A DNA stretch of 24,000 nucleotides from positions 2,767,306 to 2,791,305 of the forward strand of contig CP036352.1 of the NCBI GenBank assembly GCA_007753915.1. Direction: 5' to 3'. The DNA comes from Phycisphaerae bacterium RAS2 (GTDB lineage Bacteria; Planctomycetota; Phycisphaerae; UBA1845; UTPLA1). The first letter of the stretch is position 1. The number at the start of each line of letters is the position of its first letter. The notes under the pieces were generated by a model. The model was not told the DNA's origin and searched no databases. It saw nothing but the letters and a program-made list of their open reading frames with translations. Made by a program: the position numbers and the translations under genes. Shown piece after piece: positions 3,769-23,768 of the stretch.

Positions 3769-3826
3769 GACGTTTTCCGTTTGCGCGAACGTTTCGAGTG
3801 CGGCAAGCAAGCTCGCCAACCAAACA

Positions 3827-4948: not shown

Positions 4949-4973
4949 GCAGTTGCGCAATCGCGGTCGGGGT

Positions 4974-6224
4974 TCATTGCGTCGTCGAAGCTCCGGCCAG
5001 GCCTGACAACGGGATGCTGGGGGCTGAATTCTGCGTGGCGGCAAAGATACCGCCTGTCTCCACCCGGCCCTCCGCACCTGATACGCTGCGATATCTTGCC
5101 GTGTTCGCCATGAGTCCAAGCAAGAAGCTGTAAAACAACACGCCGCTGCCCCCCGCCGACACGAGCGGCAGGCCGATCCCCTTGGTCGGCATCGACACCG
5201 TCACCACCGCGACATTCATCGCCGCCTGGAGGCCGATCAGAATCGTTACGCCGAACGCGATCAGCCGGCCGAAGGGCGTCGGGGCGATGGCCACGGCCTT
5301 GCGCCCCTGCCAGATGAGCACGGCGAACAGGCCGATGACCGCCAGCCCGCCGATGATGCCCAGCTCTTCGCAGATGACCGAGAAGATAAAATCGCTTCGC
5401 CCTTCGGGCAGGTAGCCATATTTCTGCACGCCGCCGCCCAGACCCAGCCCCCACCAGCCGCCCGATGCGATCGTGATCAGCGACTGCATCGGCTGATAGC
5501 TCTTGCCCTGCGCGTCCAATTCGGGGTTGCGAAACGCAAGCAGGCGATCCATGCGGTACTGCTCGGCCGTGAGAAGGTAGACCAGCCCCGCGACGATTGG
5601 AATCGCCAGCAGCCCGAGGTGCCACCATCGTGCCCCGGCCGCCAGCAGGATGCACCCGCCGACCGCGACGACGAGCGCCGCCGTGCCGAGGTCTTCCTTG
5701 CCGATCAGCGCGCCGACGATGGCGACGATAAAGAGCAGCGGCAGCAGACCAGTCCAGAACTTACGCACACGATCGCCCATCCGCGCGCAAACACCCGACA
5801 GGAAAATAATGATGCCGACCTTGGCAACTTCCGATGGCTGAAAGCCCAGCCCCAGCGACGACGGCCCGAGCGACAACCACCGCCGCGCGCCGTTGCGCTC
5901 CTCGCCGATGCCGGGGATGAGTACCGCCACAAGAAGTCCAACGACTGCAATCAACATAAACACCGAGGGCTGCCACCAGGTGCCGCGGCGAATCCGCCAC
6001 GCGTCATACGGACACAAGCTAACCAGCAGCAGCGTGACCATGCCGATGCCGCTGAAGGCGGCCTGGCGAACCGCAGAATTCTTGAGCGGCTCCTGCAGGA
6101 TCGGCGGTGCGGTGAGGCTCGCCGACGCCGAAAAAACCATGACCATGCCGAGGGAAAGAAGCGCCGCGCCAACGATCGTGATCGTCGCGCTGCACGAAGT
6201 GGGCTTGCTGTCGAGATTGAGCAT
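4974..6224 (-). CDS. ftsW: SEDS-family lipid II flippase/peptidoglycan polymerase FtsW
   Basis: Polytopic SEDS protein. The C-terminal block MPTKGIGLPLVSAGGSGVL resembles the FtsW/RodA LP[FL][IV]SYGGSS motif. It lies between mraY and murG. ATG 6224 has an AGGGA ~8 nt upstream; a TTG at 6254 is an alternative start. Confidence 0.9.
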   Translation of the reverse strand: MLNLDSKPTSCSATITIVGAALLSLGMVMVFSASASLTAPPILQEPLKNSAVRQAAFSGIGMVTLLLVSLCPYDAWRIRRGTWWQPSVFMLIAVVGLLVAVLIPGIGEERNGARRWLSLGPSSLGLGFQPSEVAKVGIIIFLSGVCARMGDRVRKFWTGLLPLLFIVAIVGALIGKEDLGTAALVVAVGGCILLAAGARWWHLGLLAIPIVAGLVYLLTAEQYRMDRLLAFRNPELDAQGKSYQPMQSLITIASGGWWGLGLGGGVQKYGYLPEGRSDFIFSVICEELGIIGGLAVIGLFAVLIWQGRKAVAIAPTPFGRLIAFGVTILIGLQAAMNVAVVTVSMPTKGIGLPLVSAGGSGVLFYSFLLGLMANTARYRSVSGAEGRVETGGIFAATQNSAPSIPLSGLAGASTTQ

Positions 6225-6314
6225 CTGGGCATCCCTGCCGCGGGGCGCGATCAACAGTCGCCCCGGTATGCGATCATTCCGACGACGGCATCGTACCGTC
6301 GCCGTTCGCCGATG

Positions 6315-7445
6315 TCACCGCAACTTGGTCGTGGCCAGTGCAAAGGCCGCGAAAATCGCCGCGAGCAGCCAGAACCGCGTGACGACCTGCGTTTCCTTCC
6401 AGCCGCCGAGCTGAAAATGATGGTGAATCGGTGCGACACGGAAGATGCGCTTGCCGCCGGACATTTTGAAGTACCCGACCTGCAGCATGACCGACAACGC
6501 CTCGATCACAAACACACCGCCGACGATGAACAGCATCACTTCCTGACGGATCACGATCGCCACGAAGCCGATCAGGCCGCCCAGCGGCAGCGAACCGGTG
6601 TCGCCCATGAACACCTGCGCGGGGTGGCAATTGTACCAGAGGAACCCCAGGCACGCCCCCATCATCGCGCCGCACAGCACGGCCAATTCACCCGCCTGCG
6701 GGATGAACGGAAACAGCAAATACTCCGCGACGCGCTCGTCTCCGACTGCCCACGACAACAGCATGAACACACAGCAGCACAGCGCGACGCACCCGCTGGC
6801 GAGGCCGTCCATGCCGTCGGTGAGGTTGACCGCGTTGGACGTTCCCGCGACGACCAGCACCGTCATCGTGAGAAAAGCCCACGACGGAAGCAGAAAGCCG
6901 TATTCGTATTCGCCCTTGAAGAACGGCAGTGTGAGAATCCGGTAGTGCTCGACCTCGAAGTCGGCGAAGGTCGCCCGGCCCCGGTCATAGATGAAGTACC
7001 CCAGCATCACACCGAGGCCCACCTGAAAGAGAATCTTCTGGTAGAACTTCAACCCGTCGCGCGAGCCGCCGCGGGCCTTGTCGCGCAGCTTGATCCAGTC
7101 ATCGATGAACCCCAGCGCCGTCAGCCAGACCAGGCAGACAAACGCCATGTGAATGTATAATACTGTCAAATTCGCCAGCAGCACCGTGCTCAAGCCGACC
7201 GCTCCCACGATCAGGACGCCGCCCATCGTCGGCACGTTCTTCTTGTCCTTGGTCAGCTCGTTCAGCGCCGTGTGGTCGAAGTCGGGGATGTCGCCCACTT
7301 TCAACCGGACCAGTTGCCGGATCACCCACGGCCCGACCAGCCACACGATGAAGAACCCGACGAGGATCGCGCAGATGCCCCGAAAGAGCGGATTCTGATA
7401 CCCGTAGTTGCCGGGAAGGAAATGATTGAGCAGATGGTATATCAC
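6315..7445 (-). CDS. mraY: Phospho-N-acetylmuramoyl-pentapeptide transferase
   Basis: MIYHLLNHF... N-terminus, NAVNLTDGMDGLA, and HPAQVFMGDTGSLPLGGL are MraY hallmark blocks. GTG start at 7445 has GAGAGA upstream. Confidence 0.96.
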   Translation of the reverse strand: MIYHLLNHFLPGNYGYQNPLFRGICAILVGFFIVWLVGPWVIRQLVRLKVGDIPDFDHTALNELTKDKKNVPTMGGVLIVGAVGLSTVLLANLTVLYIHMAFVCLVWLTALGFIDDWIKLRDKARGGSRDGLKFYQKILFQVGLGVMLGYFIYDRGRATFADFEVEHYRILTLPFFKGEYEYGFLLPSWAFLTMTVLVVAGTSNAVNLTDGMDGLASGCVALCCCVFMLLSWAVGDERVAEYLLFPFIPQAGELAVLCGAMMGACLGFLWYNCHPAQVFMGDTGSLPLGGLIGFVAIVIRQEVMLFIVGGVFVIEALSVMLQVGYFKMSGGKRIFRVAPIHHHFQLGGWKETQVVTRFWLLAAIFAAFALATTKLR

Positions 7446-7541
7446 GCGCGATGGTCTCTCGATTGAATCCGTCTATATCGGCAGAATCTGCATGCCGACT
7501 GCCGCTTTTCGCGCGATTCGCCCGGCTTTCGAAGCGGCGCC

Positions 7542-8942
7542 CTAGGCCGCGCCCGTTGCGGCCGGGGACCGCTTGTCCAGCCCCTCCAGCAACCGCTCCA
7601 ATCGCATGCCCCGAGACCCCTTCAACAGAACGATATCACCAGGCTCCAGGAGCTCCCGCAATCGGCCCGACAGCGCCTCCACCGTCGGGAACGCATAGAT
7701 TCGTTTGCTCGTCCCGGCGGACTTTGTCGCCCCATCCACCACCGCCCGCGAATGCCCACCGACCGCGATGATCACTTTCGCGCTGGATCGCCCCGCCTCC
7801 AATCCCACCGACGCATGGCATCGTTCCGACTCATCCCCCAGCTCCCGCATGTCGCCAAGGACGAAAACGCGCCGACCCACGGCGGGCCACTCGTCCACCG
7901 CCTCAAACGCCGCCTTCATGCTCGTCGGGTTCGCGTTGTACGCGTCGTTGATCACCGTCCACTCGCCGAGTTGCATCGGTTCCAGCCTCATCTTGGCCGG
8001 TCGAACGGTCTCGAGTGCCGCCGCGATCTCACCGTGCGTCATCTTCAACCGCAGACCAATTGCCACGGCCGCCAATGCGTTCACCACGTTGTGCCGACCG
8101 ATCAACGGCAGTCGATAGTCGAACTTGCCGTTGACGCGAAAACGCATGCCCGCGCGATCCGCCGACAGCTCCGTCGCGCGAAGATCGGCCGACTCGGCAA
8201 AGCCATACACCAGTCGCGTACACCGCTCCGGCAGTTTGCCCGGTGCGAAGGCTGCCGCCTGCTCGCTCATTGCCAAAAATGCTCGGCCGCCAAGATTCGC
8301 AACGATTGAGAACTCCTCGCTCGCCACGGCGTCCAGCGTGCCGAAGAATTCGAGATGCTCTTCGCCAATGCTCGTCACCACCGCGAGATCGGGCTGCGCC
8401 ATGCGCCCCAGCGCCGCCACTTCACCGGGATGGTTCGTGCCGACTTCCACAACGACGTACTGATCCGCCGGCTCGACCGACAGCAGCGTCAGTGGCACGC
8501 CGATGTGATTGTTAAAACTCCCCTGCGCCGCCTTGCCGCGGAGCTTGCCGCCCAGCACCGTAGCGATCAAATCCTTGGTCGTCGTCTTTCCGTTACTGCC
8601 GACCACGGCAATGACCTGCGCAGCGAACTGCCGGCGGTACCATCCCGCGAGCTTCCCCAGCGCCGCCGTCACGTCCGGCACCTGGATGACCCGACCTCCA
8701 CGATGAAACTGGTCCGCCACGGCCGACAGATCGCTCACCACGGCGCAGGCCGCCCCGCGCGCCAGAACATTGTTCACAAATGCGTGACCGTCATGGTTCT
8801 CGCCGCGCAAGGCGAAGAACAGCCCACTGGTCACATCGTGCCGTGAATCGGTCACGATGCGATGAACCGCCGGCACGGTCAGCTCGCCAAGCAGCCGCCC
8901 CGCCATCGCCGTGCAGATTTCAGGGATCGTTAGCGCGCGCAT
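7542..8942 (-). CDS. murF: UDP-N-acetylmuramoyl-tripeptide--D-alanyl-D-alanine ligase
   Basis: Mur ligase with P-loop VVGSNGKTTTKD and a MurF-type N-terminal domain. ATG at 8942 (MRALTIPEI...) gives 466 aa and overlaps the murE stop by 13 nt (ATGCGCGCGCTAA). The ORF-track extension to 9302 is Arg-rich overlap with murE. Confidence 0.95.
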   Translation of the reverse strand: MRALTIPEICTAMAGRLLGELTVPAVHRIVTDSRHDVTSGLFFALRGENHDGHAFVNNVLARGAACAVVSDLSAVADQFHRGGRVIQVPDVTAALGKLAGWYRRQFAAQVIAVVGSNGKTTTKDLIATVLGGKLRGKAAQGSFNNHIGVPLTLLSVEPADQYVVVEVGTNHPGEVAALGRMAQPDLAVVTSIGEEHLEFFGTLDAVASEEFSIVANLGGRAFLAMSEQAAAFAPGKLPERCTRLVYGFAESADLRATELSADRAGMRFRVNGKFDYRLPLIGRHNVVNALAAVAIGLRLKMTHGEIAAALETVRPAKMRLEPMQLGEWTVINDAYNANPTSMKAAFEAVDEWPAVGRRVFVLGDMRELGDESERCHASVGLEAGRSSAKVIIAVGGHSRAVVDGATKSAGTSKRIYAFPTVEALSGRLRELLEPGDIVLLKGSRGMRLERLLEGLDKRSPAATGAA

Positions 8943-10432
8943 GCCGCCGATTGCCTCCGTGCCACCGCCTCGCGCGCGACTTCCACGTCGTCGAAGTGAA
9001 TCTTCTGCGTGCCGAGGATCTGGTAATTCTCGTGACCTTTGCCGGCGATGATCAGCGCGTCGCCCGGCTCCAGCCGCTCGATCGCATGCTGGATCGCCTC
9101 GCGGCGGTCGGCAATGGTCGTCCCGCGCTCGCGATCCGAATTGGCTACACCGCGCTCGATGTCCTGGAGAATCTTCTGCGGGTCCTCCGTCCGCGGATTG
9201 TCGCTCGTGATCACGAACCGGTCGGCGCCCTGCGTGACCGCTCGCGCCATGAGCGGCCGCTTGTACGGGTCGCGGTCCCCGCCGCATCCGAAGACGCACC
9301 ACAGCCGCTCGCGCGTCAGCGGACGCACGGCGCTCAATACGTTTCGCAGCGCGTCATCGGTGTGGGCATAATCGACGAAAATATCAAACCCCAGATCGCC
9401 CGTGTCCACCCGCTCCAGCCGCCCGGGCACGTTGTCCAGTCGGGCGATGCCGTCGGCGATGATCTCCAGGTCCAGCCCCAGCGACAGTCCCGCGGCCGCC
9501 GCCGCCAGCGCGTTCAGAATGTTGTGCCGCCCCACCATCGGCGTGCGCACCGAGACCTGTCGACCCTCCACGTCCAGCACGAACGTGCCGCCGCCGATGT
9601 CCGCCTGAAGAATCCCGCCGCGCACGTCGGCGCGGCTGTCCAGCCCGAAGCGCAGCACCCGTCCCCTGCACGCCGCCGCCATGTGGTCGCAATTGGGATC
9701 GTGCGCGTTCAGCACCGCCGTCGCGCTGCGGTCGAGCTGCTCGAACAGACGCCGCTTCGCATCGCGATAGTTCTCCAGCGTGCCGTGATAATCCAGGTGA
9801 TCCTGCGTCAGGTTCGTAAAGACGCCTGTAGCGAAGCGGATGCCGTCGGTCCGCCGCTGATCCAGTGCGTGGCTGGAGACCTCCATCACCGCGCTGTCGG
9901 CTCCGTGACCCGCCGCTTCCACGAGATGCCGCGTCAGCGTGACCGCGTCCGGCGTCGTCAGCGCCGCGTCCACCTTGCGACCGACCAGATCGTATTCAAT
10001 CGTGCCCAGCATCGCCGGCCTCAACCCGGCGCGCTGAAGCAGGGCCCGCACCATGTACGCAAACGTGCTCTTGCCGTTTGTGCCCGTGACTCCGACGACG
10101 GGAAACCGGCCATCCGCCTGAATCCGACCGAGTCCGTAAAACCCCCGCGCCAACCGCGCTACCGCCGCTCGCGCATCCGGCACGCGAATCACCGGTGCCG
10201 TCAGCGGCCCCACGTCGGCATCACGATCCGCGACGACCGCAACCGCGCCGCGCTTCACCGCGTCGGCCGCAAACGCCGCGCCGTCGGCCTTTGAGCCGGA
10301 CAACGCCACGAAGACATGTCCGGGTTGTGCCGCACGACTGTCACCACAAACGCCCGTGACCTCGACGCGGCCCAGGCTGTCGGGGCAGACCCCGACCCCG
10401 AGTTCTTCCGTGATGAGCGTTGCGAGGTCCAT
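8930..10432 (-). CDS. murE: UDP-N-acetylmuramoyl-L-alanyl-D-glutamate--2,6-diaminopimelate ligase
   Basis: Mur ligase with P-loop VTGTNGKSTF and the DNPR motif (9191-9202) associated with meso-DAP specificity. ATG 10432 (MDLATLITE...) has AAGGA/AGGGA upstream and gives ~500 aa. The upstream ATG at 10549 is an alternative. Confidence 0.94.
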   Translation of the reverse strand: MDLATLITEELGVGVCPDSLGRVEVTGVCGDSRAAQPGHVFVALSGSKADGAAFAADAVKRGAVAVVADRDADVGPLTAPVIRVPDARAAVARLARGFYGLGRIQADGRFPVVGVTGTNGKSTFAYMVRALLQRAGLRPAMLGTIEYDLVGRKVDAALTTPDAVTLTRHLVEAAGHGADSAVMEVSSHALDQRRTDGIRFATGVFTNLTQDHLDYHGTLENYRDAKRRLFEQLDRSATAVLNAHDPNCDHMAAACRGRVLRFGLDSRADVRGGILQADIGGGTFVLDVEGRQVSVRTPMVGRHNILNALAAAAAGLSLGLDLEIIADGIARLDNVPGRLERVDTGDLGFDIFVDYAHTDDALRNVLSAVRPLTRERLWCVFGCGGDRDPYKRPLMARAVTQGADRFVITSDNPRTEDPQKILQDIERGVANSDRERGTTIADRREAIQHAIERLEPGDALIIAGKGHENYQILGTQKIHFDDVEVAREAVARRQSAACAR

Positions 10433-10608
10433 TCCCTGATCCTTCGATGCCTTCCACCGAGCCACTGCCTCTTGCGGCTCGACATTGTAACGCGTCCCTG
10501 CACCGGGCAACTCGTCGAAGCCGGCTAGCCTAACCGCCGCTGCGGCCATTGATTGTACGTGATCTCCCCCGTCTGCGGTTCACGGGCGCTTCGACCCGTT
10601 GCACGCCG

Positions 10609-12363
10609 TCAGTCGCCGCCGACGCCGTCCGCCTCAACGGACGCAACGGTCCGGCCGTCGGGTCGATCCGGCGCAATCTGAAGATAAGCCAGCGCGTGCG
10701 CCAGAATTTCGCGCACGACCGGCGCGGCGACCGTGCCGCCGTAATAGGCAATCGATTTCTTCGGCCGAGTTACCGCGACCATCACCACCAGTTGCGGGTC
10801 CTTCGTCGGCGCGCCGGCAATGAATGAGCTGACATACGCGTCCGGCTCGTATCCTCCGCCGCCTCGCCGCGCGATCTGCGCCGTGCCGGTCTTCCCGAAG
10901 ACCGAATACTGCGCCAGCTTCGATTTCGTGCCCGTGCCGATCTCCACGACCTGGCTCAAGATCTTTTCGCGCATCGTCTTCGCCACGGCCTCGCTCACCA
11001 CGCGTCGTTCCGGCGGCGGGTTTGAGAAATCATTCAACACGCGCCCATCCGGCGCGAGCACGGCCCGGATCAGGTACGGCTGCACCAGCATCCCGCCATT
11101 GGCAAACACGCAGAACGCCCGCGCCAACTGCAACGGCGTCGTGCCAATCTCCTGCCCCATGGGAATGCTTGTCGTCGTGAAGCTGTTCCATCGGTTGAAC
11201 GGCTGGAGGATGCCCGAGTCTTCGCCGACCAGGTCAATGCCCGATTTGCTTCCGAAACCGTACGCGCGCATGTAGCGATGCAACCGGTCGTTCCCAAGCC
11301 GCTTGCCGATCTTGGCCATGCCGATGTTGCTCGACTTAATCAGCACATCCTCGAACGACAACGCGCCGTAGGGATGGTGATCGTGCAGCAGCCGCGCGCC
11401 GTCCTGCCAGGCCCCGTTTTCGCAATCGAAGACCTCGCCCAGCCGCACGACTTTCTCCTCCATCGCGGCGGCCGCAACGAAGGGTTTGAACGTGCTGCCC
11501 GGCTCGTACGGATCGGTGATCGCCCGATTGCGATAGCGCACCGGCCCGAAGTCCAGGTAATGATTCGGATCAAACCCCGGCGACGTCGCCATCGCGAGGA
11601 TCGCCCCCGATTGCGCGTGCATCACGATGCCGACCGCGCTCTCGGCCTTGTATTGCTCGATGCATTTGGCCAGCTCGCGCTCGGTTGTCGCCTGAATCTC
11701 GGCGTCGATGGTCAGGAGAACATGGAACCCGTCACGCGCCGGGCGATAGCCGCCGTCGGCCAGCCAGAATGCCTTGCGCCGCGCATCTCTAACAATTGTC
11801 TTTAGCCCGTCCTCGCCGCGCAGCCACGATTCGCACTGATACTCCAGACCGCTCACGCCGACGCCGTCCGGCGAGACAAACCCAACCAGCGCCGCCGCCA
11901 GCTGATTCATCGGATACACGCGATACGGCTCGTCGAACAGGCCGATGCCGTAGATGTTCGCATCGCGGATCATCTGCGCCTGCTCGTCGTCCACTCCGCG
12001 GCGAATCACCATGAAGCGATTGCCTTCCGCCGCGTTCAGGTCCGGCGCGATCTCCTCCGGCGAAACGCCGAGAATCTCCGCCACCGTTCGAGCCGCGGCG
12101 TCTTTGTCTTCGATGACTTTCGGATCGGCGAAGACGCTCTTGCGCAGCATCGTGCCGGCGATCATGCGACCGCGGCAATCGACCACGAGCCCGCGACGAT
12201 GCTTCAGCGGGATGATCGACTGCTGCTGGCGCTCGGCGCGGGCCAGCAGGGCCGTCCCCTGGTAGGCGTTGATGTAGACAAGTCGCCCGCCCAGCACGAC
12301 AAACAGGACCAGCACACCGCCCAGCAGAATCTGCGAAACCGGATTGTTTGATTTCGAACGCAA
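10609..12363 (-). CDS. ftsI: Class B penicillin-binding protein (transpeptidase), FtsI-type by context
   Basis: N-terminal TM helix (ILLGGVLVLFVVLGG) followed by a dimerisation domain. Transpeptidase motifs STFKP (SxxK), SSN and KTGTA are present. TTG start at 12363 has AAGGAA upstream. Confidence 0.93.
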   Translation of the reverse strand: MRSKSNNPVSQILLGGVLVLFVVLGGRLVYINAYQGTALLARAERQQQSIIPLKHRRGLVVDCRGRMIAGTMLRKSVFADPKVIEDKDAAARTVAEILGVSPEEIAPDLNAAEGNRFMVIRRGVDDEQAQMIRDANIYGIGLFDEPYRVYPMNQLAAALVGFVSPDGVGVSGLEYQCESWLRGEDGLKTIVRDARRKAFWLADGGYRPARDGFHVLLTIDAEIQATTERELAKCIEQYKAESAVGIVMHAQSGAILAMATSPGFDPNHYLDFGPVRYRNRAITDPYEPGSTFKPFVAAAAMEEKVVRLGEVFDCENGAWQDGARLLHDHHPYGALSFEDVLIKSSNIGMAKIGKRLGNDRLHRYMRAYGFGSKSGIDLVGEDSGILQPFNRWNSFTTTSIPMGQEIGTTPLQLARAFCVFANGGMLVQPYLIRAVLAPDGRVLNDFSNPPPERRVVSEAVAKTMREKILSQVVEIGTGTKSKLAQYSVFGKTGTAQIARRGGGGYEPDAYVSSFIAGAPTKDPQLVVMVAVTRPKKSIAYYGGTVAAPVVREILAHALAYLQIAPDRPDGRTVASVEADGVGGD

Positions 12364-12411
12364 GGCATCCGTTCCTTACCGAGTTCGATCCATCCCCTCG
12401 GGCAACGCGAG

Positions 12412-12702
12412 CTAGTCGCGCGGTCCGGGTTGCCCCCGATTGGCATCCTTCGCCGCGGCATCAGTTCGCGGCGGAAGCAGATTCAAACCGAGGTCCTTCG
12501 TCCGCCGGCGAATTTCCTCCGGCCCCCGAAGCCGTGCGAGATCCATCTCCTGCGACCAGAGCACGTGCTCCAGTTCCGTCTGCTTTTGGTGCAGCCGCTG
12601 CACGCGATTTGAAGCTTTGGCAGTCTCCCCGCGGATCACCACGATCGTGATGCCCGTGACGACCATCATCAGCAGTATCAACAGCGACCGACCCGTCGTC
12701 AT
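12412..12702 (-). CDS. ftsL: FtsL-like small bitopic division protein (TM helix + coiled coil)
   Basis: 96 aa. N-terminal TM helix LLILLMMVVTGITIVVI is followed by a heptad-like region (RVQRLHQKQTELEHVLWSQEMDLARL). It sits directly upstream of the class B PBP, as ftsL does in canonical dcw clusters. The call rests on architecture and position, not sequence identity. Confidence 0.6.
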   Translation of the reverse strand: MTTGRSLLILLMMVVTGITIVVIRGETAKASNRVQRLHQKQTELEHVLWSQEMDLARLRGPEEIRRRTKDLGLNLLPPRTDAAAKDANRGQPGPRD

Positions 12703-12753
12703 CGCACATGCACCCCGCGCGACCTGCGCCGCCGCGCTGCCCGCGTCCTTCGA

Positions 12754-14052
12754 CTACGGCTCGTCGCCGCCGCTCCCCTTTGCCGACTGGACGTTCAACT
12801 CCGACGAACCGGCCACCTTCGCCGGCACACGGATCTTCATGCCGATCTTCAGCGAATGCCGGTTCTTCAGCAGGTCCTGATTGATATCCATTAATGTCTT
12901 AACGTAGCGCTCCGCCCCCATCTCACGCCGCGCGATGCGGCTTAACGTGTCGTTTTTCTGAACCTCGTACCACCGATAGGCCATCGGCTTGGACGTGCGC
13001 TCGCCGGTTGCCTTGGCGTCGGTCGAGCGATCTTCTTCCCGGCGTTCGGCTGGATCGACCGGCGGCCGCGACGATGCCAACTGGATCGACTCAATCTGCC
13101 CCCGCTCACGAATGGGCACGGGGATGCGCAGGGCTGATTCCGGCGAGGCGGACGCGCCGCGCGGGTTCGATGGCGCCGCATCGACTAACGTCGTGCGCCC
13201 GGCGCGGGCAGGCTCCGCTACGCCAGGCTTGACGGGGGCGGCTTCCTTGTTCAACACGAATTCCGGAGCCGGCTCAAACCCCTCACCCAGGTCGGGAATC
13301 TTTAACGATGTTCCAGCCCGCACCGAAGCCTTGTTCTTCAGCACATCGCGATTGGCCTCGTAGATTGCATCGACGCGCGCCGGCGTCGAGCGTCCGAAGT
13401 GTTTCGCGGCGATCTTGCCGAGGCTTTCGCCCGGTTGAACCTCGTGATGCGTTCGCACGCGAATGCCCACTTGCTTCGCGATGCGCTCCAACTCTTCTTT
13501 CGACGCCGTTGGCGGCGACGACCCCGCAGCCAAAGTCGTATTGGCGCTCGGCAGAGCCGATGCCGAACCGGGCGAAGCCGGCGACATCACCGGGCTGCCG
13601 GGCGTCGCGGCGGGCGAACCGACCGGCGGCGTCGCCGAACCGCTGTTCTGCGCGATGCGCGTCGCGGAATCGACCGGTGTTTCCTGCACCAGCGGATCGA
13701 CCACGCGCGGCAGATTAAGACTGTTGACAAGATCGGCCGGCAGCTCCTCCAGTGGTTCGTCGTCGCGCGGCGTTGCCTGCACGACACGTTCCTCTTGAAT
13801 CGGCGACATCACCGGCACGCGCGTCGTGCTCGGGCGCACGATCGGAGGTAATTGCGTCTCCACGGGGACGCGCCCCATGTCTCCCAGCGGATGGTCCGAA
13901 GCGACGTTGGATGACTTCTTGGATTGATCCATGAACGCAAACGCCGGCGCCTTGCTGTCGCGATGCGCCGTGCCACGCTCGGATAAGATGATGGCGAAAA
14001 GTACGATGAACGCCAAACCGACCAACAGGCCGATCTTGGTCTCTTTGGTCAT
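12754..14052 (-). CDS. Bitopic membrane protein with Pro/Ser/Ala-rich linker and two LysM peptidoglycan-binding domains
   Basis: ATG 14052 is preceded by GGAGGTG. The short MTKETK tail is followed by TM helix IGLLVGLAFIVLFAIILS. LysM-1 is HEVQPGESLGKIAAKHFG...SLKIP and LysM-2 is YEVQKNDTLSRIARREMG...MKIRVP. The ORF-track start 14181 adds 43 non-membrane residues before the TM helix and lacks an SD. Confidence 0.85.
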   Translation of the reverse strand: MTKETKIGLLVGLAFIVLFAIILSERGTAHRDSKAPAFAFMDQSKKSSNVASDHPLGDMGRVPVETQLPPIVRPSTTRVPVMSPIQEERVVQATPRDDEPLEELPADLVNSLNLPRVVDPLVQETPVDSATRIAQNSGSATPPVGSPAATPGSPVMSPASPGSASALPSANTTLAAGSSPPTASKEELERIAKQVGIRVRTHHEVQPGESLGKIAAKHFGRSTPARVDAIYEANRDVLKNKASVRAGTSLKIPDLGEGFEPAPEFVLNKEAAPVKPGVAEPARAGRTTLVDAAPSNPRGASASPESALRIPVPIRERGQIESIQLASSRPPVDPAERREEDRSTDAKATGERTSKPMAYRWYEVQKNDTLSRIARREMGAERYVKTLMDINQDLLKNRHSLKIGMKIRVPAKVAGSSELNVQSAKGSGGDEP

Positions 14053-14090
14053 GGAGCGCACCTCCGTGTGCAATGACTTCCGTGGCGAGC

Positions 14091-14119
14091 AGTCTAGGTG
14101 ATAACGTCCTTGTTTACAA
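14091..14119 (-). promoter_or_regulatory. Candidate internal sigma70-like promoter in the rsmH-LysM spacer
   Basis: The minus strand reads TTGTAA (14119-14114), a 17-nt spacer, then TAGACT (14096-14091), about 39 nt upstream of the LysM ATG. Each hexamer matches consensus at only 4/6 positions. Confidence 0.25.
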
Positions 14120-14192
14120 GCTTCAATCGCGCTCCCGACCCTCTCATCGAACGCGTCCAACCGGCGCGCCGCCAGCCGCATTCCAAGTTGCC

Positions 14193-15101
14193 CTACGCAA
14201 CCCGACGTGCCACGCGAAGCTTGGCCGACCGGCTTCGCGGATTGACGGCCTGTTCCTCTTCCGTCGCCGTCAAGGGCTTCTTTGTCAGCACCTCAAAGGT
14301 ACCGGCAGCCGACATCGCCTTGAAATTCTCCTTCACGGCCCGATCTTCCACACTGTGAAAGCTGATCACCGCAATCCGTCCGCCAATCGACAGGCATCGC
14401 GGAGCCGCTTCCAGCAGCCGACCCAACGCCTGCGTCTCACCGTTCACGGCCATTCGCAAGGCCATGAACGTTCGCGTTGCCGGGTGGATGCGGCTTCGGT
14501 GCGAGTCTGGGTCCTCGCCCATTGCCGTGGCGACCAATCGGGCCAACTGGACTGTGCTGTTCAGCCGAATTTGCCGACGAACCTGACAAATCCGCTTTGC
14601 AATTCTTCGGCTGTGCCGTTCTTGCGCCTGCAAGTAAATTAGATCGGACAGCTCTCCCTCGCCCAGCGTGTTCACCAAGTCGGCGGCGGTGGTCTTTTGA
14701 CGCCGGTCCAGCCGCATGTCCAACGGTCCATCCACGTCGAAACTCAACCCCCGAAGCGGGTCGGAAATCTGGTTACTGCTGACCCCCAGGTCGGCCATAA
14801 TCCCCACAACTGGCCCGGTTGCGCTTCCTCCATCCGCCAGAACCGCAGCCAGGTCGCCGAAATTGGACTGAACGGACCGAAATCGGTCTCCGAATTCCGC
14901 CAGCCTCCCGTTCGCCGTCGCCAGGTTCGACTCATCGACATCCAACCCCAGCACCTGAATCCTTGGGTTCGCGCGGAGGAGCAAGCTGGAGTGCCCTCCC
15001 AGGCCGAGGGTGCAATCCACGACCCATCCGGCGGGCAAGTCTTGAAAAAACCGCGCGACTTCGTCGGAAAGGACCGGGACATGTCCGAGTAGGTCGCTCA
15101 T
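14193..15101 (-). CDS. rsmH: 16S rRNA (cytosine1402-N4)-methyltransferase
   Basis: HVPVL near the N-terminus, DCTLGLGGHS SAM-binding block, ISFHSVEDR block, and 302 aa length fit RsmH. Its ATG overlaps the TGA of the upstream ORF (ATGA at 15101-15098). Confidence 0.95.
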   Translation of the reverse strand: MSDLLGHVPVLSDEVARFFQDLPAGWVVDCTLGLGGHSSLLLRANPRIQVLGLDVDESNLATANGRLAEFGDRFRSVQSNFGDLAAVLADGGSATGPVVGIMADLGVSSNQISDPLRGLSFDVDGPLDMRLDRRQKTTAADLVNTLGEGELSDLIYLQAQERHSRRIAKRICQVRRQIRLNSTVQLARLVATAMGEDPDSHRSRIHPATRTFMALRMAVNGETQALGRLLEAAPRCLSIGGRIAVISFHSVEDRAVKENFKAMSAAGTFEVLTKKPLTATEEEQAVNPRSRSAKLRVARRVA

Positions 15102-16738
15102 GAGCGATGCATCGCCTCCGCCGCCCGAAACGCCAGTGTGTGTAGCCGTTCAACTGAATGCATCCCGACGAACCACTCTCGATTCTGCGCGACGCGGTTG
15201 CTTTCAATTTCTCGCTTCAGTCGAGCAACCTGCTGCGCCGCCGGGTTCAGGCCGCTACGCGATTCCGACAGACCGGTTTGAACCAGCCCCAGGGCGAGAG
15301 CGATTTCCTGATTTGCACGATGAATGGCCTCGTATTGGATGCGCCGCTCACTTCGCAAACGCGGCGTTTCCTTTCGCAGATGCATCGACGAGTCGATTGC
15401 TCTTTGCCGCCGTTCAATCAAGGCGGCGACCTCTCGGGCATGCTTTGGGTCACTGCTTGCCGCCAACCGCTGCGGATTGAAACGCCGATCTCGTCCTTCG
15501 CGGTACACGCGATCCAGATCGCGCGGGCCGGCGTCAAACCGCGGCAGGGGCAATCGAAGCGTCGCCGTCACACAACCGTAACCCGGCGGCTCAATGCCGA
15601 ACAACCGTCGAATCACATCGTCCGTGATCTGATCGTACTTCGCGCCGCCGATACCATGAATGAACACGTCGCAAGCCAGCAGACGCAGGTACATCGTCAG
15701 TGCCAGCGCCCGCGGCCGCAGGCTCCATCCAGCCGCCAACTCGCACAGCGCCGCGCCGGGCTGCGATTGCAATCGGACGGCGGAAGTTGTCCCCAGTTCA
15801 AGCCCGTCGGCCCAGAGCGTCAGGTCGCCTCCGGTCGAGACGGACACATACACGCGCTGCCGCGGCCGACTTTCGCGCACCGCCCAAAGCGGCACTTCCA
15901 CCCGCGCGCCGTCCATCAAAAGATCGGGAATCGGATGCTGCACGCCCGCGATGCCGCGCCGCGTTCGATAAGCCGCCAGCGCCCCGTTGAACGCCTTCGC
16001 AGTCTTTCCAGCGTTGGCGATCAGATGACCCACGAAGCATGTGCCGCGCCGCGCGGCCGTGGGACTGCACAGGTTGAACTCGTCGCTGACGAATCGGTAG
16101 TCTGGCGGGGCGACGCCGGCCGCCGTGTCTATCGCCGCCACTCCGGCTCGCCACCGCTGCGCGTAGGCCGCCGGTCCGGAAGCACTCTCGAGGAAAGACG
16201 TCACCCAACGGGAAAATGCCGTTGCGGGTCCTTCCCGAAATGACGATGGGACGCGCTCGAAAAAAGCAATCCATTCCGCCGCGGCGCGCGCCGGCATCGA
16301 CTCAAACGCCCAGCCGGCCTGAAAGTCCGCGAACGCCGCGACCGACCGCGCCGTCACGATTCCATCGTCAATCTCCGGCCAGGCCAGCGCCGTACGGTGA
16401 ACCGCATCACTGTCGACGATCCAATACTCCGCCCGACCGGCGAAGCGCGATGCCAGCGCGGAAACCGCCGCGACCTTGACCCACACGCCGGGATGGATGA
16501 ACCCCGGTTGGTGGCCCGCCGCGACGACCAGCGGCTCCGAAGCATCGTCATTCAGCAAATCGCCCGCGGGCGTATCAAGTAAGGTGTAAGAATATCTCCG
16601 TCGCGCGGCCCGGTTGCGCGCCGCAAGGTCCGCCAGTGCCCCGCCCCCGGGCCAGGTCAACACGTCGCCATCGCCTGCGGGAGCAGCCAGTGCGTCGATC
16701 TCGGTGGCGGTCATTTTGGAATGATAGGCGAAGGTCAA
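15098..16738 (-). CDS. Divergent BshC-like protein (putative BshC/YllA family; function uncertain)
   Basis: ~540 aa, the same size as BshC. Three colinear blocks resemble B. subtilis BshC as I recall it. VVAAGHQPGFIHPGVWVK matches VVGGQQAGLLTGPLYTIHK. YWIVDSDAV matches FWVAGEDHD. RPRALALTMYLRLLACDVFIHGIGGAKYD matches RPLMQEFLIPTLAFIAGPGEINYW. The C-terminal ~100 aa look coiled-coil, as in BshC. The start is either TTG 16738 (TTGA overlap with the GT2 stop) or ATG 16714. The coding call is strong; the family call is moderate. Confidence 0.55.
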   Translation of the reverse strand: MTFAYHSKMTATEIDALAAPAGDGDVLTWPGGGALADLAARNRAARRRYSYTLLDTPAGDLLNDDASEPLVVAAGHQPGFIHPGVWVKVAAVSALASRFAGRAEYWIVDSDAVHRTALAWPEIDDGIVTARSVAAFADFQAGWAFESMPARAAAEWIAFFERVPSSFREGPATAFSRWVTSFLESASGPAAYAQRWRAGVAAIDTAAGVAPPDYRFVSDEFNLCSPTAARRGTCFVGHLIANAGKTAKAFNGALAAYRTRRGIAGVQHPIPDLLMDGARVEVPLWAVRESRPRQRVYVSVSTGGDLTLWADGLELGTTSAVRLQSQPGAALCELAAGWSLRPRALALTMYLRLLACDVFIHGIGGAKYDQITDDVIRRLFGIEPPGYGCVTATLRLPLPRFDAGPRDLDRVYREGRDRRFNPQRLAASSDPKHAREVAALIERRQRAIDSSMHLRKETPRLRSERRIQYEAIHRANQEIALALGLVQTGLSESRSGLNPAAQQVARLKREIESNRVAQNREWFVGMHSVERLHTLAFRAAEAMHRS

Positions 16739-17469
16739 CAGCGCCGGCGCGTGGCGCAGGGCGTTGGCGATGGAAGCGGACGGGCCAACTCCGCCTCGAA
16801 CACTTCGAGGTAATGCTGCAGGCGCGCCTCGGGGTCATCGAGCAGCCCGCCAAAATGCCGAGTCGGATCGAGATAAATCAGCGGCACCGGCAACTCGCAA
16901 ATCCGCAGTCCGCGCCGCACCGCCTGCACCCAGAATTGAAGCGGAAACGCATACCCCGGCACCGTCAGGTCCAGACTCGCCATCGCGCACACACGATACG
17001 CCTTGAACCCGCAGAAGGCATCGGTCAGGTTCAAGTCCAGCCGTTCGTTCAGAATCCGTGTGATCCGCCGGTTGATCGCTCGACGGTCTTCCGGCGCGAC
17101 CGTGTTGCCTGCCATGTCGGTGAGATAGCGCGACCCGGAGACGATGTCCACGTCGTCCACCGCCGCGCGCCGGATGAAATCGGGGATGCCGGCAGGTTCA
17201 TGCTGTTCGTCGCAGTCGATCGTGATAATCCAGTCGTAACCATGGCAGTCTGCATACCGGAACGCATCGATCAGGCTCTGCCCATATCCGCGATTCTCCG
17301 GATGGCGAATGACCTGAATCCCTTCGAAACCGGCAAGAACTGCCGACGTGCCGTCCGTGGAACCGTCATCCACAACCAGCACATCCGTGGCGTATTGGCG
17401 GACCTCCGCCAGCACGTCCGCGACGTATGCGGCCTCGTTGTAAACGGGGATGGCGACCAGCGTTCGCAT
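16735..17469 (-). CDS. Family 2 glycosyltransferase (short, soluble; polyprenyl-phosphate sugar synthase-like)
   Basis: VAIPVYNEAAYV, VVDDGSTDGT and a DCD (DxD-type) motif are the GT2/GT-A signature, in a 244-aa protein. ATG 17469 is preceded by AAGAGG. Confidence 0.9.
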   Translation of the reverse strand: MRTLVAIPVYNEAAYVADVLAEVRQYATDVLVVDDGSTDGTSAVLAGFEGIQVIRHPENRGYGQSLIDAFRYADCHGYDWIITIDCDEQHEPAGIPDFIRRAAVDDVDIVSGSRYLTDMAGNTVAPEDRRAINRRITRILNERLDLNLTDAFCGFKAYRVCAMASLDLTVPGYAFPLQFWVQAVRRGLRICELPVPLIYLDPTRHFGGLLDDPEARLQHYLEVFEAELARPLPSPTPCATRRRC

Positions 17470-17506
17470 TCATGCCTCTTTCGGTGGCTCATTGTCGAGC
17501 AAGGAA

Positions 17507-17534
17507 ATAATAAGTCACGTGGAGGCGAAGTCAA
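17507..17534 (-). promoter_or_regulatory. Candidate sigma70-type promoter for the GT2-BshC-like-dcw operon
   Basis: The minus strand reads TTGACT (17534-17529), a 16-nt spacer, then TATTAT (17512-17507). Each hexamer matches consensus at 5/6 positions. It lies 37 nt upstream of the GT2 ATG in a locally AT-richer divergent intergenic region. Confidence 0.4.
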
Positions 17535-17697
17535 AGGAAATGCGTGCTTCCGCACGGCGGGGAATCGCCCTATCTCTCGGCGGATTCTCGGTTTGCACGT
17601 TTCGTTTGCCGATAATAACGAAGATCGCGCCGGCCCGACAACTGCGCAAGCCACCGCGCCGACGGCCGCGCGATCCATCAAACGGGCTGTTTTCGCG

Positions 17698-18567
17698 ATG
17701 ACCTTCAGAAGTATTGGATTGGCCCCCCATCGACTCGTTGCGCTGCCGGCAGTCGGCGCAATGCTTGTTGGCTGCGCCGCAACGAACCAGCGTCTGATGG
17801 AGCCGATTCACAAATCGACCGCTTCATGGGAGCTGAAGCGCGCCGAAGATCACGCCCAGCGCGGGCGCGATGAAAGCGCGGCCGATGCCTTCCAGCGGGC
17901 GATTCGCCATGACCCGCGCTGCGCGGCCGCCCATGCCGGTCTGGCGCGGCTTCGTCTGCAACAGGGGGCGATGGACCTGGCCGCCGGAAGCTTTCGATCC
18001 GCCGTCAAGTACGATCCGCAGCGGTTTGAGTATGCGATGGAACTCGCCGATTGTCTGCGCATCGGCGCAGCCCAGCATGCTGATCCACGCGCGCAACTGG
18101 CTGATGCCATTCGGGCCTACCAGTATGCCGAGTCGCTGGACGGCACGAGATACGAGCCGGTCTTCGGCATTGGTGTCAGCTATCGCCTGCTGGGAGACGT
18201 CGATCGCGCATTGGACCATCTCCGCCGCGCGATCGGGTTGAATCCGGCGGCCGTCGCGCCGCACATCGAAAAGGCGGCAGCGCATTTTGCCCGGAACGAG
18301 TATCGCAACGCGCTCGCCGAATACCGCCAGATTCTGGAGATTGACCCGAACAATGTGGCCGCGCACAACGGCGCCGGGCGTGTGAACGCCGTGCTGGCAA
18401 GGGCGCGCGGCCCGCGCGGGGCGCTGGCTCGCGAGCGAGCAGTCGCGCATTTCCGCCGATCGCTTGAGTTGGGGACCAATCAGGCTGACATCCGCAAGTC
18501 GCTCGCCGAGTTGGAGATGTACCGATACCCCGGCGTGCAGGTCGTCCGCGATGAGCCGGAAGATTGA
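17698..18567 (+). CDS. TPR-repeat lipoprotein
   Basis: ATG 17698 gives MTFRSIGLAPHRLVALPAVGAMLVGC, with a lipobox LVGC. Several TPR-like helical pairs follow (AFQRAIRHDPRCAAAH..., ALDHLRRAIGLNP..., ALAEYRQILEIDPNNVAAH...). The upstream 1 kb of the 643-aa track ORF is antisense to the GT2/BshC-like genes and is rejected. Confidence 0.8.
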   Translation: MTFRSIGLAPHRLVALPAVGAMLVGCAATNQRLMEPIHKSTASWELKRAEDHAQRGRDESAADAFQRAIRHDPRCAAAHAGLARLRLQQGAMDLAAGSFRSAVKYDPQRFEYAMELADCLRIGAAQHADPRAQLADAIRAYQYAESLDGTRYEPVFGIGVSYRLLGDVDRALDHLRRAIGLNPAAVAPHIEKAAAHFARNEYRNALAEYRQILEIDPNNVAAHNGAGRVNAVLARARGPRGALARERAVAHFRRSLELGTNQADIRKSLAELEMYRYPGVQVVRDEPED

Positions 18568-18611
18568 TCGTCGCCGCGGCAGGCAGTGCCCACCCATCGG
18601 CTCGCTGATTA

Positions 18612-22932: not shown

Positions 22933-23019
22933 GTCTCGGCGTAGTTTAGAGCATTTTGGTGCGGTGTGTGGCAGCCTACTCAACTCAATCGGCCCGAATT
23001 CCCGGCTGGTCAATCAAGT

Positions 23020-23038
23020 AGGTCGGGTCCGCCGACCT
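23020..23038. repeat. Left copy of a 13-bp inverted repeat (AGGTCGGGTCCGC, 23020-23032), itself part of a 7-bp-stem hairpin
   Basis: AGGTCGG (23020-23026), loop GTCCG, CCGACCT (23032-23038) form the hairpin. The 13-mer recurs exactly in reverse complement at 23693-23705. Confidence 0.6.
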
Positions 23039-23155
23039 GACGCTCATGGTCTGATCCGATCTATTTGGCTGAAATCAATACCTTGAAGTGCGCATGTTCC
23101 TGAGTTGTTGGTACGTCGTAAAAAATCATTTACGTCACCTCCAGCCGTACTCAGT

Positions 23156-23596: not shown

Positions 23597-23683
23597 GCGC
23601 TGAATTCCAAGCAATCCGAAGGTACGTGATATCGAGGGCTAGTTCAGTAACTCGGATGTTTGCCTCGGACGTCGCAGGAAATT

Positions 23684-23705: not shown

Positions 23706-23768
23706 GCAAGGCACCCAAATTGTCAGAATGCCTCCGTTCATGCACATTCCCGGCGACACATAAACCCG

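What the first reader, a model, noticed from the sequence alone, without database searches (positions are those of the whole stretch)
15098..17534. GT2 glycosyltransferase plus divergent BshC-like protein sit in the mraZ position and are coupled to rsmH at the head of the dcw operon
Seen in sequence: the best sigma70-like promoter I found for the cluster (TTGACT-N16-TATTAT) lies upstream of the GT2 gene. The GT2 stop overlaps a possible TTG start of the 546-aa ORF (TTGA at 16738-16735). That ORF's TGA overlaps the rsmH ATG (ATGA at 15101-15098). No mraZ is present. The 546-aa protein shows three colinear motif blocks and a C-terminal coiled coil resembling BshC/YllA. That comparison is from memory and needs a real alignment. 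Established knowledge: in B. subtilis, bshC (yllA) lies immediately upstream of mraZ-rsmH, and BshC's proposed cysteine-ligase activity has, to my knowledge, not been reconstituted in vitro. Inference: a BshC-like gene adjacent to rsmH in a very distant high-GC lineage, now inside the operon, argues for a functional link to envelope synthesis or division rather than coincidence. Its partner is a short soluble GT2, not the GT4 BshA. This suggests a different, possibly lipid- or sugar-linked, substrate, so the pair could be an uncharacterised two-enzyme module co-expressed with PG synthesis. More speculatively, the window also encodes a deacetylase (CE4, 1191-2243). A glycosyltransferase, a deacetylase and a BshC-like enzyme together mirror the BshA/BshB/BshC chemistry using non-orthologous families. 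However, the CE4 gene is 13 kb away on the other strand.
Basis: partly seen in the sequence, partly recalled or inferred. Interest (0 to 1): 0.7.

Follow-up and report, generated by a model that had tools for sequence, protein, structure and literature searches.

The report
Planctomycete GT2 plus BshC-fold enzyme pair
A conserved, uncharacterised two-gene pair found across Planctomycetota (a lipid-phosphate-type sugar transferase followed by an enzyme whose predicted fold matches only the bacillithiol enzyme BshC) sits here in front of rsmH at the head of the cell-wall/division operon, but that position is peculiar to one clade.

Summary
GT2 (16735-17469), a 538/546-aa ORF ("X546", 15098-16714/16738) and rsmH (14193-15101) are tightly packed on the minus strand. 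X546 and rsmH share an ATGA overlap. A TTGACT-N16-TATTAT site precedes GT2, and there is no mraZ.

The BshC call holds only at fold level.
- Against: no Pfam or NCBIfam BshC match at E≤10 in 35 family members, and profile-profile comparison is not significant.
- For: the AlphaFold model (pLDDT 92) has B. subtilis BshC (4WBD) as its only significant PDB match (E 8e-11, 526 columns). Class I aminoacyl-tRNA synthetases follow at E≥0.01.

X546 belongs to a large unannotated family (about 3,800 clusters at 50% identity). The named hits are almost all Planctomycetota.

The conserved unit is GT2→X546, adjacent in 60 of 75 species loci. rsmH follows in only 5 of 72, all within one Phycisphaerae-type clade, so a division-specific role is weakly supported.

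GT2 resembles TM-less polyprenyl-phosphate sugar synthases (PpgS, DPMS, ArnC).

Best reading: a two-step module that builds and then modifies a probably lipid-linked sugar, co-expressed with peptidoglycan genes in this clade. A soluble thiol-type pathway is not excluded. The CE4 "BshB analogue" idea has no support.

The parts
17507..17534 (-). Sigma-70-like promoter candidate TTGACT-N16-TATTAT upstream of GT2
   Evidence: Scores 10/12. The -35 is identical and the -10 is TATTAT or TATCAT in relatives L081, L087 and L088. It lies in the 228-nt divergent intergenic region between the TPR gene and GT2.
16735..17469 (-). GT2 glycosyltransferase, 244 aa, no TM helix. It is of the DPM1/PpgS/ArnC type (polyprenyl-phosphate sugar synthase-like).
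   Evidence: Pfam PF00535, E 1e-29. The best NCBIfam match is PpgS, E 1.4e-32, full length but below the equivalog cut-off. The family profile hits ArnC at 2e-16 and DPMS at 3e-16 in PDB sequences, and does not hit GpgS. The AF2 model has pLDDT 91. Foldseek gives ArnC and DPMS at 6e-13 (TM 0.70-0.72) and GpgS at 1e-11. The maximum 19-residue hydropathy is 1.18. The sequence shows a DCD(85-87)EQH motif.
15098..16714 (-). X546: 538 aa from the ATG at 16714 (546 aa if from the TTG at 16738). It has a BshC-fold, class-I-aaRS-like Rossmann core with C-terminal long helices, and belongs to an unannotated family.
   Evidence: No Pfam or NCBIfam hit. More than 500 homologues, those with source names being hypothetical proteins of Planctomycetota or Phycisphaerae. 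3,807 clusters at 50% identity. AF2 pLDDT 92. Foldseek gives 4WBD BshC at E 8.4e-11. Invariant motifs are GHQPxFxHxGxWxK, VDxD, RPRAL..., FxHGxGGAxYDxxxD and RxxxxNP.
14193..15101 (-). rsmH (mraW). Its ATG overlaps the X546 stop codon (ATGA).
   Evidence: TIGR00006, 250.6 bits against a cut-off of 154.3. The overlap is visible. The same 4-nt overlap occurs in L081, L084, L087, L088 and L089.
3827..14181 (-). Rest of the dcw cluster: LysM protein (12754-14181), 96-aa ORF in the FtsL position (12412-12702), ftsI, murE, murF, mraY, ftsW and murG.
   Evidence: Pfam assignments. The same order is seen in L081, L083, L084 and L087.
17698..18567 (+). Divergently transcribed TPR-repeat gene (289 aa). 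It bounds the operon head.
   Evidence: tblastn against TPR genes of L081, L084 and L086. Pfam TPR families. The 298-aa minus-strand ORF at 17824-18720 is its antisense shadow.
17563..17630 (.). 68-nt intergenic block identical but for one variable site in four relatives. It is a candidate regulatory site.
   Evidence: No significant RNA structure on either strand (z about 0). No Rfam hit. Only one further copy, at the same locus type, in the metagenome collection.

Best explanation
GT2 and X546 form a Planctomycetota-wide two-gene enzyme module.

Step 1 (inferred from family and fold): the TM-less GT2 is a DPM1/PpgS/ArnC-type enzyme. It transfers a sugar from a nucleotide sugar to a phosphate-bearing acceptor, most likely undecaprenyl/polyprenyl phosphate at the inner face of the membrane.

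Step 2 (inferred from fold and invariant residues): X546 is a remote structural relative of BshC, with a class-I-aaRS/HUP Rossmann core. It uses a nucleotide (ATP)-dependent ligation to modify that glycoside, for example by attaching an amino acid or another carboxylate. The product would then feed an envelope glycoconjugate.

In the clade that includes this window, the module was placed directly in front of rsmH, where mraZ sits in other bacteria. It is transcribed from a conserved promoter region and translationally coupled to rsmH, so it is co-expressed with peptidoglycan genes.

Shown: gene layout, coupling, fold relationships, pair conservation and the clade-restricted dcw linkage. Inferred: substrates, chemistry and the envelope destination.
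For: - Pair conservation: GT2 lies directly upstream on the same strand in 60 of 75 species-level loci. These include Phycisphaerae, Blastopirellula marina DSM 3645 and Isosphaeraceae. The flanks otherwise vary.
- X546 fold: BshC is the only significant PDB match, followed by GlnRS, GluRS and TyrRS.
- X546 conservation: invariant Gly/His/Asp/Lys/Arg motifs at Rossmann strand ends suggest a catalytic protein.
- Colinearity with BshC: a relaxed profile alignment places GHQPxF..K on BshC GGQQAGL..HK, and VVDSD on AGEDHD.
- GT2 family: sequence relatives are all polyprenyl-phosphate transferases (PpgS 1e-32, AglJ, Dol-P hexose transferase, ArnC). Fold matches are ArnC and DPMS.
- Operon structure: the ATGA overlap with rsmH recurs in relatives. 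The promoter hexamers are conserved. No internal terminator-like site was found.
- Linkage to Und-P-using genes: mraY, murG and ftsW lie in the same operon in one clade.
Against: - No biochemical data exist for this family, and the chemistry of BshC itself is unresolved (PMC5790435).
- GT2 fold matches to soluble glucosyl-3-phosphoglycerate synthase are almost as good as those to ArnC and DPMS. GT2 has no TM helix. A soluble acceptor is therefore possible.
- No flippase, GT-C transferase or deacetylase is conserved next to the pair.
- The similarity between X546 and BshC is not significant at sequence or profile level.
- The global TM-score to 4WBD is only 0.44.
- In the Brocadiia/anammox loci sampled here, X546 is not next to the GT2.
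- dcw linkage is absent in most lineages.
Confidence: 0.4

Rival explanations
1. Soluble low-molecular-weight thiol (or other glycoside-amino acid) pathway. GT2 glycosylates a small acid, as GpgS, BshA or MshA do. X546 then adds cysteine, as BshC or MshC do. This would give Planctomycetota a phylum-specific redox thiol.
For: - BshC is the only significant structural relative of X546.
- GT2 lacks TM helices and matches soluble GpgS at E 1e-11, TM 0.71.
- The family has the near phylum-wide distribution expected of a core redox cofactor.
Against: - By sequence, GT2 groups with polyprenyl-phosphate transferases. Its family profile does not hit GpgS at E≤0.001.
- BshC and MshC need a free amino sugar, yet no LmbE or CE-type deacetylase is conserved near the pair.
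- No BshC sequence signature is detected.
Confidence: 0.15
2. X546 acts before GT2 rather than after it. As a HUP-class nucleotidyltransferase it would make an unusual nucleotide-activated donor, which GT2 then transfers.
For: - The Rossmann/HUP fold is shared with class I aaRS.
- An H-x-G element and a GGAKYDQ loop are invariant at positions typical of nucleotide-binding motifs (my reading of the sequence).
- Pairings of a nucleotidyltransferase with a glycosyltransferase are common (general knowledge).
Against: - The full-length match, including the C-terminal helices, is specifically to BshC. No sugar or cofactor nucleotidyltransferase appears in the top 50 matches.
- At 538 aa with large insertions, the protein is unlike the known small nucleotidyltransferases.
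Confidence: 0.12
3. X546 is a non-catalytic partner that activates, scaffolds or localises the TM-less GT2. DPM3 does this for DPM1, the Ppm1 membrane domain for Ppm2, and Rv3632 for PpgS.
For: - TM-less DPM1-type enzymes usually need a partner (established knowledge).
- The adjacency is tight and conserved.
- BshC itself has never shown activity in vitro.
- X546 evolves much faster than GT2. On what appears to be a shared contig, matched by the listed length 44,627, identity to the window proteins is about 41% for X546 and 74% for GT2.
Against: - X546 has no TM segment (maximum hydropathy 1.55), so it cannot tether GT2 to the membrane.
- About 47 residues are invariant across 35 diverse members, concentrated in active-site-like loops. 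That pattern fits catalysis better.
Confidence: 0.1
4. The position in front of rsmH is a neutral, lineage-specific rearrangement. It carries no division-specific meaning, and its resemblance to bshC-mraZ-rsmH in Bacillus is coincidence.
For: - rsmH follows X546 in 5 of 72 species loci, all within one clade. Within that clade, linked and unlinked members are interspersed.
- Elsewhere the pair is followed by DUF1844, rhomboid and class IV aminotransferase genes, or by unrelated genes.
- The planctomycete dcw cluster is known to be eroded and rearranged (PMC12673574).
Against: - The arrangement has persisted between relatives whose X546 proteins share only 39-40% identity with the window's (L083, L084).
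- The 4-nt translational overlap with rsmH is maintained in several of them.
- A BshC-fold gene at the dcw head in two distant phyla is at least a notable coincidence.
Confidence: 0.55

Closest known systems
BshC (YllA), putative cysteine-adding enzyme of bacillithiol synthesis; PDB 4WBD; Pfam PF10079 + PF24850; TIGR03998
   Same: - Similar length (538 against 539 aa).
- It is the best and only significant structural match, over 526 columns.
- Both have a Rossmann-like core followed by long C-terminal helices.
- Three motifs are colinear by eye and in a relaxed profile alignment: G-x-Q-x-G-φ...K; a strand followed by acidic residues; and RP-x12-FIxGxGxxxY.
- In Bacillus and in this clade the gene sits just upstream of the dcw head.
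   Different: - Identity is 11%. There is no HMM or profile-profile signal.
- The invariant residues differ (His68, His74, His353, Lys359 and many Arg in X546).
- The partner is a GT2, not the GT4 BshA.
- No BshB-type deacetylase is nearby.
- The host phylum has no predicted bacillithiol pathway.
Class I aminoacyl-tRNA synthetase catalytic domains (GlnRS, GluRS, TyrRS) and the CysRS paralogue MshC
   Same: - Second-tier structural matches (E 0.01-0.4).
- MshC offers a functional analogy: an aaRS-like ligase that acts on a glycoside made by a glycosyltransferase (established knowledge).
   Different: - No canonical HIGH or KMSKS motif.
- No anticodon-binding domain.
- TM-scores are only about 0.2.
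PpgS (Rv3631), DPM1/DPMS, ArnC and GtrB: polyprenyl-phosphate glycosyltransferases of family GT2
   Same: - Pfam GT2 with a DxD-x-Q-H motif.
- Full-length colinear match to the PpgS model.
- Best PDB sequence and fold matches are ArnC and DPMS.
- Like PpgS and human DPM1, it is short and TM-less (the comparison to these two is from my knowledge).
   Different: - It scores 113 bits against the PpgS equivalog cut-off of 370, so it is not an orthologue.
- Donor sugar and acceptor are unknown.
- The partner is a BshC-fold protein, not a small membrane protein, a deformylase or a GT-C transferase.
mraZ-rsmH head of the dcw operon
   Same: rsmH followed by an ftsL-position gene, ftsI, murE, murF, mraY, ftsW and murG.
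   Different: - mraZ is absent.
- Two enzyme genes occupy its place.
- A LysM protein is inserted after rsmH.
- murD is missing between mraY and ftsW.

Membership tests
BshC (Pfam PF10079 Rossmann-like_BshC + PF24850 CC_BshC; NCBIfam TIGR03998) | Match to the family HMMs at or near the curated threshold | tested here: not met
   No hit for X546 in Pfam at E≤10 or in NCBIfam at E≤1. None of the 35 family members hits PF10079 or PF24850 at E≤10. True BshC proteins carry both domains.
BshC | Detectable sequence homology by profile methods | tested here: not met
   The A1 profile against PDB sequences does not retrieve 4WBD at E≤10. hhalign of A1 against a 20-sequence BshC profile gives probability 0.14, E 0.4.
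BshC | Overall fold: Rossmann-like core with insertions plus a C-terminal coiled-coil region | tested here: met
   The AF2 model has pLDDT 92. Foldseek against 4WBD gives E 8.4e-11, probability 1.00, 526 aligned columns and TM 0.44. The next hit is at E 0.011.
BshC | Conserved BshC motif residues (GGQQAGLLTGPLYTIHK; WxAGEDHD; RP...FIAGPGExxYW) | tested here: inconclusive
   Colinear analogues are present (GHQPxFxHPGVWxK; VDSD; RPRAL...FIHGxGGAKYD). Most BshC-invariant residues are replaced.
BshC | Pathway context with BshA (GT4) and BshB (LmbE deacetylase) | tested here: not met
   Neither gene appears next to the pair in the annotated contexts. Genome-wide co-occurrence could not be tested. 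The literature reports no predicted thiol pathway in Planctomycetes.
BshC | Required for bacillithiol production (cysteine addition to GlcN-malate) | not testable with these tools
   This needs genetics and thiol profiling.
Class I aaRS / HUP nucleotide-binding ligases | HIGH and KMSKS signature motifs | tested here: not met
   Neither canonical motif is present. Only H74-P-G76 and G356-G-A-K-Y-D-Q are found at analogous loop positions. Equating them with HIGH and KMSKS is my inference.
Polyprenyl-phosphate GT2 (DPM1/PpgS/ArnC/GtrB type) | GT-A fold, GT2 Pfam domain and DxD motif | tested here: met
   PF00535, 103.9 bits. D85-C-D87 is invariant. Fold matches to ArnC and DPMS at E 6e-13, TM 0.70-0.72.
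Polyprenyl-phosphate GT2 (DPM1/PpgS/ArnC/GtrB type) | Equivalog-level match to a characterised member (PpgS, ArnC, AglJ) | tested here: not met
   PpgS scores 113 against a cut-off of 370, ArnC 39 against 529, and AglJ 64 against 325.
Polyprenyl-phosphate GT2 (DPM1/PpgS/ArnC/GtrB type) | Lipid-phosphate acceptor rather than a soluble acceptor | tested here: inconclusive
   Sequence profiles favour lipid-phosphate enzymes. The fold search scores soluble GpgS almost equally, and GT2 has no TM helix.
dcw operon head | Co-transcription of GT2 and X546 with rsmH | tested here: inconclusive
   The 4-nt overlap, the gap of 20 nt or less, a conserved promoter-like site and the absence of an internal terminator-like site all fit co-transcription. 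No transcript data are available.

The most novel reading that the evidence does not exclude
The GT2-X546 pair makes a previously unknown, planctomycete-specific cysteine-containing glycoside. This would be the missing low-molecular-weight redox thiol of the phylum. X546 would be a second, independently tractable branch of the BshC fold, on which the unresolved BshC ligation chemistry could finally be worked out.
Probability: 0.12. Interest if true: 0.85.

Novelty: new variant of a known kind. Interest (0 to 1): 0.58.

Why it matters
- X546 defines a large protein family with no Pfam or NCBIfam model (about 3,800 clusters at 50% identity). It is present across the classes of Planctomycetota, and its only recognisable relative is BshC, an enzyme whose reaction has never been reconstituted.
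- A second, very divergent branch of this fold, with a different and tightly linked partner enzyme, gives an independent handle on what BshC-fold proteins do.
- It also points to a phylum-specific metabolite or envelope modification in bacteria whose cell wall, division and redox-thiol biology are all atypical.
- The pair is present in the cultured strain Blastopirellula marina DSM 3645 (L058), so the proposal can be tested.

Tried and rejected
- Sequence-level tests of BshC membership were all negative: Pfam and NCBIfam at permissive E-values, the family profile against PDB sequences, and hhalign against one BshC sequence and against a BshC profile. Global hhalign was uninformative.
- The 1.84-billion-protein profile search gave the size of the family. 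It lists only the top 150 hits, so it could not show whether the tail reaches BshC.
- The BshC structure paper (PMC4303302) is not held. The ADP and citrate-site residues could not be mapped.
- CE4 as a pathway partner: not found in any related locus.
- An Mla lipid-transport link in anammox loci: seen in only 2 loci, so rejected.
- The ultraconserved intergenic block as a structured RNA: folding z-scores are about 0 on both strands and there is no Rfam hit. It is more likely a protein-binding regulatory DNA site.
- The 298-aa minus-strand ORF at 17824-18720 as an upstream operon member: rejected, because it is the antisense shadow of the TPR gene.
- No GT2-X546 fusion proteins appear among the listed hits.
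- Literature searches found no description of BshC-like proteins, or of any LMW thiol, in Planctomycetota.

Full report
**1. What is in the sequence**

The window is high-GC (about 0.63). Its closest protein matches are hypothetical proteins from Phycisphaerae and other Planctomycetota MAGs.

The minus strand carries, in order:
- GT2 (16735-17469)
- a long ORF, here called X546 (15098-16738 from TTG, or 15098-16714 from ATG)
- rsmH (14193-15101)
- a LysM protein
- a 96-aa ORF in the FtsL position
- ftsI, murE, murF, mraY, ftsW and murG

However, the 99%-identical database protein P0001 and four close relatives are all called from the ATG. Each leaves an identical 20-nt gap after GT2. Family conservation starts just after that ATG. 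I therefore take 16714 as the likelier start.

TTGACT-N16-TATTAT lies at 17534-17507 and scores 10/12. It sits in a 228-nt divergent intergenic region bounded by a TPR gene on the plus strand (17698-18567). Both hexamers are conserved in relatives L081, L087 and L088. No minus-strand terminator-like site lies inside GT2-X546.

No mraZ is detectable in the window or in about 90 related loci. The MraZ queries were recalled from memory and not checked against a database.

**2. Is X546 BshC-like?**

- X546 has no Pfam hit at E≤10 and no NCBIfam hit at E≤1.
- None of 35 diverse family members hits the BshC Pfam models at E≤10.
- A family profile does not find 4WBD among PDB sequences.
- hhalign against a verified B. 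subtilis BshC sequence and against a 20-sequence BshC profile is not significant.

The structural test succeeds. The AlphaFold2 model is confident (pLDDT 92.2, pTM 0.88). Its only significant PDB match is BshC 4WBD, at E 8.4e-11, probability 1.00, 526 aligned columns, 11% identity and TM 0.44. The next matches are class I aminoacyl-tRNA synthetases at E≥0.011.

- GHQPxFxHPGVWxK against GGQQAGLLTGPLYTIHK
- a strand followed by VDSD against AGEDHD
- RPRAL-x-FIHGxGGAKYD against TRPLM-x-FIAGPGExxYW

A relaxed profile alignment puts the first two in register.

**3. The family and its conserved partner**

X546 belongs to a large unannotated family. More than 500 hits were found in the 90%-clustered database, and 3,807 clusters at 50% identity have E≤0.001. 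At least 518 GTDB species genomes carry a match. Among the 80 loci retrieved, the record titles are overwhelmingly Planctomycetota, spanning Phycisphaerae, Pirellulaceae (including Blastopirellula marina DSM 3645), Isosphaeraceae and Brocadiia.

In the 80 best species-level loci, a close homologue of this GT2 lies directly upstream on the same strand in 60 of the 75 loci that have enough upstream sequence. rsmH lies directly downstream in only 5 of 72.

Annotated contigs show the same picture.
- GT2-X546-rsmH-LysM-ftsI... occurs in L081, L082, L083, L084 and L087.
- The pair occurs with unrelated flanks in L085 and L086.

A neighbour-joining tree of X546 places all rsmH-linked genes in one clade, where they are interspersed with unlinked ones. 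The other Phycisphaerae clades, the Planctomycetia and the anammox group are all unlinked.

In the largest other clade, the pair is followed by DUF1844, rhomboid and class IV aminotransferase genes. In anammox loci the GT2 is not adjacent.

The conserved functional unit is therefore GT2→X546. Attachment to the dcw head is a clade-specific feature, old enough to persist down to 39-40% X546 identity.

**4. What the GT2 is**

- Pfam GT2.
- NCBIfam ranks PpgS (polyprenyl-phospho-GalNAc synthase) first, full length at E 1.4e-32. AglJ, Dol-P hexose transferase and ArnC follow. All are below equivalog cut-offs.
- The GT2 family profile hits ArnC (2e-16), DPMS (3e-16) and GtrB among PDB sequences, but not GpgS.
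- The AF2 model (pLDDT 91) matches ArnC and DPMS best (E 6e-13, TM 0.70-0.72). Soluble glucosyl-3-phosphoglycerate synthase is nearly as good (E 1e-11, TM 0.71).
- It has no TM helix. From my own knowledge, PpgS and human DPM1 are likewise TM-less.
- GT2 is far more conserved than X546. On what appears to be a shared contig (matched by the listed length 44,627), identity to the window proteins is about 74% for GT2 and 41% for X546.

**5. Mechanism**

The best-supported reading is a two-step module. GT2 loads a sugar onto a phosphate-bearing acceptor, most likely polyprenyl phosphate. X546, a nucleotide-dependent BshC-fold ligase, then modifies the glycoside.

X546 has invariant His, Lys and Asp residues at Rossmann loop positions, and many invariant Arg residues suited to an anionic substrate. 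Reading these as a nucleotide-dependent ligase active site is my inference.

In this clade the module is co-expressed with Und-P-dependent peptidoglycan enzymes.

The main rival is a soluble thiol-type pathway. [quoted passage not shown] It lacks a conserved deacetylase, and the GT2 sequence affinities argue against it.

Other rivals are X546 as a maker of the sugar donor, and X546 as a non-catalytic partner of the TM-less GT2.

The CE4 gene at 1191-2243 has no demonstrated link to the pair.

**6. Comparison with the known, and novelty**

bshC does sit immediately upstream of mraZ-rsmH in B. subtilis. The parallel is real, but given the census it is probably coincidental or convergent.

No paper in the library describes BshC-like proteins in Planctomycetota. 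I rate the finding as a new variant of a known kind: a very divergent BshC-fold family with a new partner. Interest is moderate to high. The division link is downgraded.

**7. Side observation**

A 68-nt block in the divergent intergenic region (17563-17630) is identical, apart from one variable site, in four relatives whose X546 proteins are only 65-74% identical to the window's. It shows no RNA-structure signal and no Rfam match. In the metagenome collection, a 29-nt core of the block occurs exactly only once more, at a contig with the same gene arrangement. It is probably a regulator-binding site for the divergent promoters.

Noticed in passing
window 17563-17630 (intergenic, between the TPR gene and GT2): A 68-nt block is identical, apart from one variable site, in the window, L081, L087 and L088. 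The flanking proteins in those relatives are only 65-74% identical to the window's. The block contains a direct repeat, GCAAAC-N7-GCAAAC. It shows no RNA-structure signal and no Rfam hit. An exact 29-nt core was found only once more in the metagenome collection (L090), beside an ORF of GT2 size on the same side. It is probably an operator for the divergent promoters.
   Followed up: partly
window 3827-7445: The order mraY (6315-7445), ftsW (4974-6254), murG (3827-5119) has no murD between mraY and ftsW. A cytosine/purine permease (2227-3900) follows murG in place of murC, ddl and ftsQAZ. Relatives L081 and L083 show the same murD-less order.
   Followed up: no
window 12754-14181 and 12412-12702: A 475-aa LysM-domain protein sits directly after rsmH, followed by a 96-aa ORF with no Pfam match in the FtsL position. 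Both are conserved in L081, L083, L084 and L087. This looks like a clade-specific insertion into the dcw head.
   Followed up: partly
window 17824-18720 (minus strand) against 17698-18567 (plus strand): The 298-aa minus-strand ORF is an antisense shadow. The real gene is a 289-aa TPR protein on the plus strand, and it recurs as a divergent neighbour of GT2 in L081, L084, L086, L087 and L088.
   Followed up: yes
GT2 16735-17469 against X546 15098-16714: The two partners evolve at very different rates. In relatives whose X546 is about 41% identical to the window's, GT2 is 71-74% identical. The GT2 and X546 entries were paired by matching longest-contig lengths of 44,627 and 172,309.
   Followed up: partly
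L091 (B. subtilis): The order panE, bshC, mraZ, rsmH, ftsL, pbpB is confirmed. A BshC-fold gene therefore abuts the dcw head in both Bacillota and one planctomycete clade.
   Followed up: yes
L003 2085-9650: In this relative the GT2-X546 pair faces ftsI and murE on the opposite strand, about 3 kb away. The dcw cluster is nearby but inverted, which suggests rearrangement around this junction.
   Followed up: no
window 23001-24000: GC content drops to 0.517 in the last kilobase, from about 0.63 elsewhere.
   Followed up: no
window 7542-9302 against 8930-10549: The mechanical murF ORF (586 aa) overlaps murE by about 370 nt. Relatives have a 466-aa MurF with a small overlap, so the real murF start is probably further downstream.
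   Followed up: no
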